Positions 50,299 to 51,580 of a stretch of DNA of 64,000 nt are shown here, in pieces. Origin of the DNA: Zootoca vivipara (Eukaryota); NCBI RefSeq assembly GCF_963506605.1, contig NC_083279.1, positions 101,184,001-101,248,000 on the forward strand. Reading direction: 5' to 3'. Below the pieces are notes generated by a model. It worked only from the letters and a program-made list of their open reading frames with translations. It did not search any database and was not told the DNA's origin. Every line of letters starts with the position of its first letter. Position 1 is the first letter of the stretch. Made by a program: the position numbers and the translations under genes.

Positions 50299-50606
50299 TC
50301 CACTTCAGACAATTAACTTTGGGCAGAAAGCCAATATCTGCTCTCTCTGTGCATCGTTACAAGAGCCTTAGTAACAACTCTGTGATTGGATAAGGAGTTC
50401 CTAAAAGATAAGCTCTGTGTGGTGTTATGTGAATGAGTGAGTACAGTGTGGAGAAAAAACTGTAACAGGTGGTTGTGTGAGAGAGGGACAGAGAGGAAAG
50501 GATTTGTTTTATTTCATTTACTTTATGAAGTTTTGTACATAGCAATTTCTGGATACAGTCTGTTCAATAAATCCTGTATATAGTTATCCTGCGTCCAGAC
50601 GTCTAA

Positions 50607-51580
50607 TCATTGTACTACAGCCAGAAGCTTCCGGAAAACCTGCGCAAACTCTGCTGTGTCCAGGTGTATGTTATTCCTGGCACTAAAACTCAAATAATGA
50701 TCTGTATGAATTATTTGATGGGTATTGAGATTGGCCTTTTGAATGAAGCTCTTTCCACATTCCACACACTTGTAGGGTTTCTCCCCTGAATGAATTCTCT
50801 GATGGGAAGTGAGATAGAAGCTATGAGTGAAGCTCTTTCCACATTCCACACACTGATAGGGTTTCTCCCCTGAATGAATTCTTTGATGGGAAGTGAGAGA
50901 GGAGCTCTGAGTGAAGCTCTTTCCACATTCCACACACTGATAGGGTTTCTCCCCTGAATGAACTCTTTGATGGGAAGTGCGATGGGAGCTCGTGCTGAAG
51001 CTCTTTCCACATTCCACACACTGATAGGGTTTCTCCCCTGTATGAATTCTCTGATGGGAAGTGAGATAGGAGCTATGAGTGAAGCTCTTTCCACATTCCA
51101 CACACTGATAGGGTTTCTCCCCTGTATGAATTCTTTGATGGGAAGTGAGATTGAACTTCTTATTGAAGCTCTTTCCACATTCCACACACTGATAGGGTTT
51201 TCCCCCTGTATGAATTCTTTGATGGGAAGTGAGATTGGACTTGTCACTGAAGCTCTTTCCACATTCCATGCACTGATATGGTCTCTCCCCTGTATGAATT
51301 CTTTGATGGGAAGCGAGAGTGTGGCTGTGACTGAAGCTCTTTCCACATTCCATGCACTTATGTGGCTTCTCCCCTGTATGAAGTCTTTGATGGGAAGAGA
51401 CATAGGAGCTCTTACATTCCAGACACTGATAGAGTTTCTTTCCAATGAGAATTCTTTGTTGGGAAGTGGAATGGGAGCTCTGACTGCAGCTCTCTCCACA
51501 CTCCAAATTTTTATGTGGCTTCTCCACTCTGCAGATTTTTTCTTGGTCACCCTTGATTATGATGTCCAAATCTTCACTAT
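50607..51580 (-). CDS. SCAN-KRAB-ZNF gene B, terminal exon: 8 intact C2H2 fingers plus one internally deleted finger
   Basis: C2H2/TGEKPY repeats. Acceptor ttgcag|AT at 51581-51582, phase 1. Confidence 0.93.

What the first reader, a model, noticed from the sequence alone, without database searches (positions are those of the whole stretch)
50500..50705. KRAB-ZNF gene B takes its C-terminus, stop codon and probably its polyA signal from the antisense strand of a Copia LTR
Seen: after finger 8 the expected TGEKP linker is replaced by [12 protein letters not shown]...AVVQ*. The last 29 codons plus stop (50696-50607) lie inside the LTR that begins after the Copia PPT at 49792 (tattagag) and ends ctcaaata at 50696, a 7/8 terminal inverted repeat. 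A minus-strand AATAAA sits at 50508-50513. Inference: a retrotransposon inserted at the end of the finger array of a gene from a TE-silencing family, possibly truncating it (8 versus 17 fingers). The mRNA would now carry antisense LTR sequence, a potential small-RNA or dsRNA link.
Basis: partly seen in the sequence, partly recalled or inferred. Interest (0 to 1): 0.7.

Follow-up and report, generated by a model that had tools for sequence, protein, structure and literature searches.

The report
Retrotransposon re-caps a lizard zinc-finger gene
A retrotransposon end sits right behind the last zinc finger of a lizard repressor-type gene and supplies its last 29 codons and stop, likely replacing an older transposon-made ending rather than cutting off fingers; such borrowed gene endings are a known kind of event and recur in this gene cluster.

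Summary
The junction is real. The family's LTR ends exactly at 50696, so the last 29 codons and the stop of this intact SCAN-KRAB-8-finger frame are antisense Copia LTR. (1) The LTR is about 439 bp, split by a 461-bp solo LTR of a second Copia family. (2) Truncation is unlikely: all 6 sister paralogs end their arrays on an old antisense CR1 3' end, and gene B keeps 5 bases of that junction, so the Copia likely replaced a short CR1-made tail. Gene A is from another subclade. (3) In 17 of 18 other LTR copies this frame stops at codon 2; one private base change (TAG to TTG, 50692) opened the long tail and is the '7/8 inverted repeat' mismatch. (4) The poly(A) site is undecided: the nested LTR lies in the gene's sense and offers its own conserved AATAAA at 50107-50102. 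Expression is untested. Repeat-made stops also end gene A and a Podarcis paralog. Verdict: a real, tidy new case of a known kind; low interest unless small RNAs are shown.

The parts
57001..57402 (-). gene B exon 1, SCAN domain (ATG at 57402)
   Evidence: matches P0026 residues 1-134 with GT donor; Pfam SCAN E 5.6e-35
56718..56799 (-). gene B exon 2 (linker)
   Evidence: AG/GT sites, matches P0026
56352..56434 (-). gene B exon 3 (linker)
   Evidence: AG/GT sites, matches P0026
52347..52473 (-). gene B exon 4, KRAB-A box
   Evidence: Pfam KRAB E 8.8e-17, 42 of 42 positions; splice sites
50607..51580 (-). gene B last coding exon: spacer, 2 degenerate and 8 intact C2H2 fingers, TDH, LTR-derived tail, stop
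50697..50701 (+). ATGAT (gene sense ATCAT): likely surviving target-site copy and last relic of the CR1-made tail of sister paralogs
   Evidence: sisters read ACAGGGGAGAATCATGG, gene B ACAGATCAT then LTR; family makes 5-bp duplications
50610..50696 (-). 29 codons read from the antisense LTR; no Pfam family; GRAVY 0.25, last 15 residues 0.82
50691..50693 (-). codon TTG where other copies have a stop; the private change is at 50692
   Evidence: 17 of 18 other copies stop at codon 2; pattern search finds this variant only here, 1 of 4 matches
50607..50609 (-). TGA stop inside the LTR
50508..50513 (-). candidate poly(A) signal 1: AATAAA on the antisense strand of the Copia LTR, 93 nt after the stop, TGTA upstream
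   Evidence: at the homologous place in 17 of 18 other copies
50304..50696 (+). Copia 3' LTR, right part
   Evidence: 2.8-5.4% different from the 4 nearest copies; edges
49838..50298 (-). nested solo LTR of a second Copia family, same sense as gene B, duplication TCCAC (49833-49837, 50299-50303)
   Evidence: full elements L128 and L129 have RVT_2 on the minus strand, PPT and PBS-like sites on that strand
50102..50107 (-). candidate poly(A) signal 2: sense AATAAA of the nested LTR, about 500 nt after the stop
   Evidence: TTTATT in 20 of 20 aligned rows from 18 loci, two of which repeat the L128 LTRs
49792..49837 (+). Copia 3' LTR, left part (starts TA; other copies TG)
49785..49791 (+). polypurine tract GAGGGGG
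   Evidence: same in 6 of 6 family members printed
49148..49784 (+). Copia pol remnant (end of RT and RNase H region)
   Evidence: 81-93% to L089, L091, L092; no Pfam hit on its own; L092 has gag, protease-region, integrase, RVT_2 in Copia order
47900..49147 (-). 1.25-kb non-LTR-type insertion inside the Copia, 17-bp duplication, T-run at the left end; family not classified
47663..47899 (+). leftmost Copia remnant; everything further 5' (5' LTR, gag, integrase, most of RT) is absent here, and a young CR1 3' end (47067-47664) abuts it

Best explanation
The last 29 codons and the stop of an intact SCAN-KRAB zinc-finger frame are antisense Copia LTR, which likely inserted five bases into an older CR1-made tail and so replaced about nine tail residues without removing a finger. 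Inferred order: (1) before Zootoca and Podarcis split, an antisense CR1 3' end capped the array of the clade's ancestor (TGENHGI..LWSWK*); (2) a Copia integrated at ATCAT in that tail, which would at first have ended the protein as TDHY*; (3) one base change, TAG to TTG, let the frame run to the next chance stop; (4) a second Copia inserted into the LTR and collapsed to a solo LTR in the gene's sense, a LINE-type element entered pol, and a deletion removed the 5' half of the Copia with the old 3' flank. The order among 3 and 4 is not resolved. The protein is predicted to keep its DNA binding and repression modules; the new tail is most likely neutral or mildly destabilising (hydrophobic end). 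If transcribed, the mRNA must borrow a poly(A) signal from one of the two LTRs; I put the antisense 50513 site and the sense 50107 site at about even odds.
For: Shown: exact LTR edge and 5-bp duplications in 14 of 19 loci; Copia domain order in L092; five exons with GT-AG sites matching public model XP_060130113.1. Tree of 26 rows on intron plus spacer DNA: gene B sits in a 99/97 clade whose other 6 rows all carry the CR1 junction (4 directly after the last intact finger, 2 after a degenerate one); one more row outside the clade has it, 18 rows do not. That tail is a dispersed repeat (2884 candidates, 75-81% on many contigs), 69% over 287 nt to a young CR1 in the window, with an ATTCCATG/ATTCTATG end like the CR1 octamer ATTCTRTG (PMC8665684, passages). 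Podarcis lilfordi CAI7935043.1 ends TGENHGIVELWSWK. Finger 8 is closer to the terminal finger of L093 (7 mismatches) than to its 13 others (10-15). Stop at codon 2 in 17 of 18 copies; L023, with a different change there, is also open for 29 codons, so the rest of the frame needed no selection.
Against: The 'no finger lost' step rests on a 5-base match plus an assumed 6-base deletion. Finger 8 is as close or closer to the first three fingers of L045 (5, 6, 6 mismatches; identical helix QKANLNTH), so its type is not only terminal. The second target-site copy and the old flank are gone, so the site cannot be closed from both sides. No one-to-one ortholog was found among 18 lacertid proteins inspected. 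The stop-removing base could have been in the donor element rather than arising in place. The public model is a prediction; expression was not tested.
Confidence: 0.72

Rival explanations
1. The Copia landed inside the array and cut off downstream fingers, changing what the protein binds.
For: Finger 8 resembles internal fingers 1-3 of L045; the far side of the insertion is deleted, so lost fingers would leave no trace; ATCAT could come from a finger through a deletion.
Against: An insertion in a linker should leave ACAGGGGAG(AAA), not ACAGATCAT, which fits the CR1 junction of 6 of 6 sisters; L093 ends on a KANL finger; 6-15 fingers is the range in the clade; gene A (16 strict fingers) is not a sister.
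Confidence: 0.15
2. The chimeric mRNA works as an antisense trap: host transcription carries Copia LTR sequence antisense into the cytoplasm and feeds piRNA-type silencing of this family, so the insertion was kept.
For: Orientation is antisense and exonic; the mechanism is shown for Tirant in fly 3' UTRs (PMC13226689, abstract); the family is young, with 40 scored of 397 candidates.
Against: No RNA evidence here; if the 50513 signal is used only about 210 nt of LTR are in the mRNA; the nested element is sense, not antisense; antisense bias of insertions in genes also follows from purifying selection (own knowledge).
Confidence: 0.08
3. Gene B is a dying copy: loss of its 3' flank and a hydrophobic foreign tail leave an untranslated or quickly degraded product.
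For: Old 3' flank deleted; tail end GRAVY 0.82, and such tails are BAG6 targets in human cells (bioRxiv 10.1101/2022.07.20.500724, abstract); a BovB-type LINE fills intron 3 (label from own knowledge).
Against: All five exons, splice sites, KRAB, SCAN and 8 fingers are intact after at least three later insertions and a deletion next door; two usable AATAAA follow the stop.
Confidence: 0.15

Closest known systems
TE-derived poly(A) sites adopted by host genes (Lee, Ji and Tian 2008, PMC2553571; passages read)
   Same: A host gene's 3' end falls in an LTR that offers AATAAA.
   Different: Here the stop codon and 29 codons are LTR-derived too.
TE insertion into last exons of non-mammalian vertebrates (PMC2911107; passages read)
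   Same: Insertion elongates or changes the last exon.
   Different: Described as usually affecting the UTR; here it changes the coding end, twice in succession (CR1, then Copia).
Antisense Tirant insertions in host 3' UTRs triggering piRNA (PMC13226689; abstract only)
   Same: Antisense, exonic LTR-element sequence under a host promoter.
   Different: Shown in Drosophila ovary with small-RNA data; nothing of the kind is shown here.
Non-TGCA Copia elements such as rice Tos17 (TG..GA) and lotus TG..TA groups (PMC9804982; passages read)
   Same: Copia with TG..TA and TG..GA ends and 5-bp duplications.
   Different: Those reports are from plants; this family is in a lizard. One search listed no vertebrate case among 5 papers, which is not an exhaustive look.
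Stop-loss and noncoding translation giving hydrophobic C-terminal tails cleared by BAG6 (bioRxiv 10.1101/2022.07.20.500724; abstract only)
   Same: Loss of a stop exposes a noncoding-derived tail with a hydrophobic end.
   Different: The tail is only moderately hydrophobic overall (GRAVY 0.25); no test in reptile cells.

Membership tests
Ty1/Copia LTR retrotransposon | gag, protease, integrase before RT (RVT_2) | tested here: met
   in relative L092, 80-81% identical to the window remnant; the window remnant alone has no Pfam hit
Ty1/Copia LTR retrotransposon | PPT directly before the 3' LTR | tested here: met
   GAGGGGG at 49785-49791, shared by 6 of 6 members printed
Ty1/Copia LTR retrotransposon | 5-bp target duplication | tested here: inconclusive
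   met in 14 of 19 other loci; for this copy only the right-hand ATGAT survives
Ty1/Copia LTR retrotransposon | canonical TG...CA ends | tested here: not met
   family ends TG..TA or TG..GA, this copy TA..TA; non-TGCA Copia are a described subset (PMC9804982), so this bars the canonical subset only
SCAN-KRAB C2H2 zinc-finger gene | SCAN, KRAB-A and tandem C2H2 array on one spliced frame | tested here: met
SCAN-KRAB C2H2 zinc-finger gene | TRIM28-dependent repression, binding to TEs | not testable with these tools
   inferred from family knowledge only
CR1 LINE 3' end (tail of sister paralogs) | homology to CR1 3' UTR ending in an ATTCTRTG-type octamer; dispersed copies | tested here: met
   octamer from PMC8665684; CR1 label of the window's young copies rests on their RT frames and octamer and on own knowledge
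TE-derived poly(A) site | mRNA 3' ends mapped 10-35 nt after the hexamer | not tested
   no reads could be laid on the locus
3' UTR piRNA trigger (Tirant type) | antisense small RNAs from the chimeric mRNA that silence the family | not testable with these tools
   no small-RNA data

The most novel reading that the evidence does not exclude
In lacertid SCAN-KRAB-ZNF clusters, transposons themselves set where finger arrays end: three different repeats (CR1, an unclassified short repeat, Copia) cap three lineages, one of them twice in series, and the capped mRNAs carry antisense TE sequence that feeds small-RNA silencing, so the same transcripts act against TEs as protein and as RNA.
Probability: 0.08. 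Interest if true: 0.7.

Novelty: new member of a known kind. Interest (0 to 1): 0.27.

Why it matters
As it stands it is a well-resolved example of how gene ends are rebuilt in a fast-turning ZNF cluster: a TE-made stop replaced by another TE-made stop, then extended by one base change. It shows that repeat-derived stops are common here (6 of 6 sisters, gene A, a Podarcis paralog), which is useful for reading ZNF annotations. It would matter more if the antisense LTR in the mRNA produced piRNAs, since that would carry the Drosophila 3' UTR trap model to a vertebrate and link it to KRAB-ZNF genes.

Tried and rejected
Expression: one search listed 23 runs; no RNA holder listed (7 rows from 3 studies hold half or more of the 67 words, one guessed to be RNA; none laid, so no evidence either way). 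No reads were laid on the locus, so transcription, strand, splicing and the 3' end stay open. One LTR of 905 bp: rejected. The LTR at window 1-233 as the 5' LTR of the same element: rejected, 75% versus 93% to L024, other subfamily, 49 kb away. Search for the 5' half of the Copia and the old 3' flank in the window and 80 kb of neighbours: nothing beyond generic repeats; a 152-base N stretch at 45744-45895 could not be read. Ortholog search: searches gave no protein other than P0026 with the LTR tail among those stored, and none of 18 inspected had gene B's finger helices; these searches are crowded by long ZNF proteins, so this is weak. Isoform X1 of the public model was not found, so an alternative last exon is not excluded. 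Pfam on the pol remnants and the tail: no hits. My first nested-LTR end was 5 bases short; corrected. Literature: searches listed no paper on this gene or on TE-made ends of lacertid ZNF arrays (titles and abstract starts only). Earlier scan notes near this place: none.

Full report
Setting. The window is G000:C4:101184001-101248000, inside a multi-megabase cluster of SCAN-KRAB zinc-finger genes. A public predicted protein, XP_060130113.1, labelled zinc finger protein 829-like isoform X2 of Zootoca vivipara, is identical to the last 61 residues of gene B and lies on a contig of the same length. Its five exons map to the window with GT-AG sites and carry SCAN, KRAB and 8 C2H2 fingers. So the junction is already inside a public gene model, though not described as LTR-derived there as far as the label shows.

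The LTR. Searching the genome with 50480-50720 gave 40 scored matches of 397 candidates, ending at query positions equal to 50688-50698. Of the 19 other loci fetched, 14 have a matching 5-bp duplication around an element of about 410-510 bp that begins TG and ends TA or GA; 2 match 4 of 5 bases, 1 does not match, 2 could not be delimited. The closest copies end CTCTAATA, which places the right edge at 50696 exactly. Full-length relatives have gag, protease-region, integrase and RVT_2 in Copia order. But the stretch 49792-50696 is two elements: uninterrupted copies join 49837 to 50304, and 49838-50298 is a solo LTR with TG...CA ends and a TCCAC duplication. Its full-length relatives encode RVT_2 on the minus strand, with PPT and primer-site-like sequence on that strand, so it lies in the sense of gene B. 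Left of the PPT only 0.9 kb of pol remains, split by a 1.25-kb insertion with a 17-bp duplication; the 5' half is absent from the window and the 80 kb around it.

What was there before. Tails of 25 loci from the cluster show that TGEKP is often not what follows the last finger. The nearest paralogs end TGENHGIEDLWSWK*, TGENHGIEDLWS*, TEENHRIVELWSWV*. That DNA is the antisense 3' end of an old CR1: 69% over 287 nt to a young CR1 in the window, thousands of dispersed candidates, and an octamer tail like ATTCTRTG (PMC8665684, passages). A tree on intron and spacer DNA (26 rows, none dropped) puts gene B in a 99/97 clade whose other 6 rows all have this junction; L056 has it too but falls outside on a weak node; 18 rows including gene A lack it (my automatic label caught 4 of the 6 sisters, and the other two show the same junction after a degenerate finger in the printed sequence). 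Gene B reads ACAGATCAT then LTR, sisters ACAGGGGAGAATCATGG. The simplest reading is a 6-base loss and an insertion after ATCAT. Finger 8 is 7 mismatches from the terminal finger of L093 and 10-15 from its others, but 5-6 from the first three fingers of L045, so this is likely rather than proven. A Podarcis lilfordi protein ends TGENHGIVELWSWK, which dates the CR1 cap before the two genera split; the Copia LTR, 2.8-5.4% from its 4 nearest copies, is likely much younger. Gene A's stop also overlaps a dispersed repeat of about 170 bp found on three other contigs at 75%, unclassified.

Why the tail is 29 codons. Read from the LTR end in gene B's frame, 17 of 18 other copies stop at codon 2. Gene B's copy has TTG there through one change at 50692, found in 1 of 4 exact pattern matches, itself. 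L023 has a different change in the same codon and is likewise open for 29 codons, so the remaining frame is a family property. With copies differing by 3-5%, a hit in a given codon is not rare (roughly 1 in 10, my estimate), so selection is not needed. The tail has no Pfam family and a hydrophobic end (GRAVY 0.82 over the last 15); such ends are degraded through BAG6 in human cells (bioRxiv 10.1101/2022.07.20.500724, abstract), which is an inference for this protein.

Poly(A). Two minus-strand AATAAA lie between the stop and 49600. The one at 50513-50508 is 93 nt after the stop, has TGTA upstream and is present at the homologous place in 17 of 18 copies. The one at 50107-50102 is the nested LTR's sense signal, present in 20 of 20 aligned rows. 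In human genes adopted LTR sites are strongly plus-strand biased (PMC2553571, passages), which favours the second; proximity favours the first. Chance alone gives a hexamer within 200 nt in 10% of shuffles. No reads were laid, so this is open, as is expression.

Comparison and verdict. TE insertion in last exons and TE-derived poly(A) sites are known (PMC2911107 and PMC2553571, passages); an earlier scan note in the same genome reports a similar LTR-ended gene (unchecked). The antisense-trap idea has a fly precedent (PMC13226689, abstract) but no support here. Searches listed nothing on this gene; no supplements were read. New here is the detail: serial replacement CR1 then Copia, a single stop loss, and repeat-made stops across the cluster. 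New member of a known kind; interest 0.27.

Noticed in passing
L022-L040 (genome-wide copies of the LTR at 50304-50696): A lizard Copia family with non-canonical ends, TG..TA and TG..GA, and 5-bp duplications in 14 of 19 loci. The cases I read about are from plants; TGCA-only LTR finders would miss these.
   Followed up: partly
window 1286-1452; L132-L134: Gene A's stop and last codons overlap an unclassified dispersed repeat of about 170 bp shared by many cluster paralogs (SKVG.TIIQL-type tails), also seen in Podarcis proteins.
   Followed up: partly
L093, L095, L045, L097, L094, L130, L098: A clade of paralogs whose stop comes from an antisense CR1 3' end, with the tail kept 12 of 14 residues between Zootoca and Podarcis lilfordi.
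   Followed up: yes
window 1-380 and L041:9900-10000: A second LTR of the same family, other subfamily, 1.2 kb downstream of gene A, also antisense; cut at about 233 and joined to an inverted 150-bp piece of Copia internal sequence 96% identical to L091 and L092.
   Followed up: partly
window 49838-50298: The nested solo LTR must be younger than its host LTR, yet its nearest sampled copy is 9.5% away while the host's is 2.8% away; close relatives may be unsampled or lost.
   Followed up: no
window 50059 and 50102; 50508 and 50566: Both Copia LTR families carry AATAAA on both strands within about 50-60 bases of each other.
   Followed up: no
L129:863-5095: A member of the nested LTR's family has one 1410-codon frame with RVT_2 only among Pfam hits; similar LTR pairs about 4.7 kb apart occur on C9 and C12, so the family is young.
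   Followed up: no
window 27824-28801, 34147-35109, 43039-44016: Three single-exon olfactory-receptor-like frames lie between the two ZNF genes (label from own knowledge).
   Followed up: no
window 14445-19820: A long LINE with ORF1-like, endonuclease and RT frames broken by stops, upstream of gene A.
   Followed up: no
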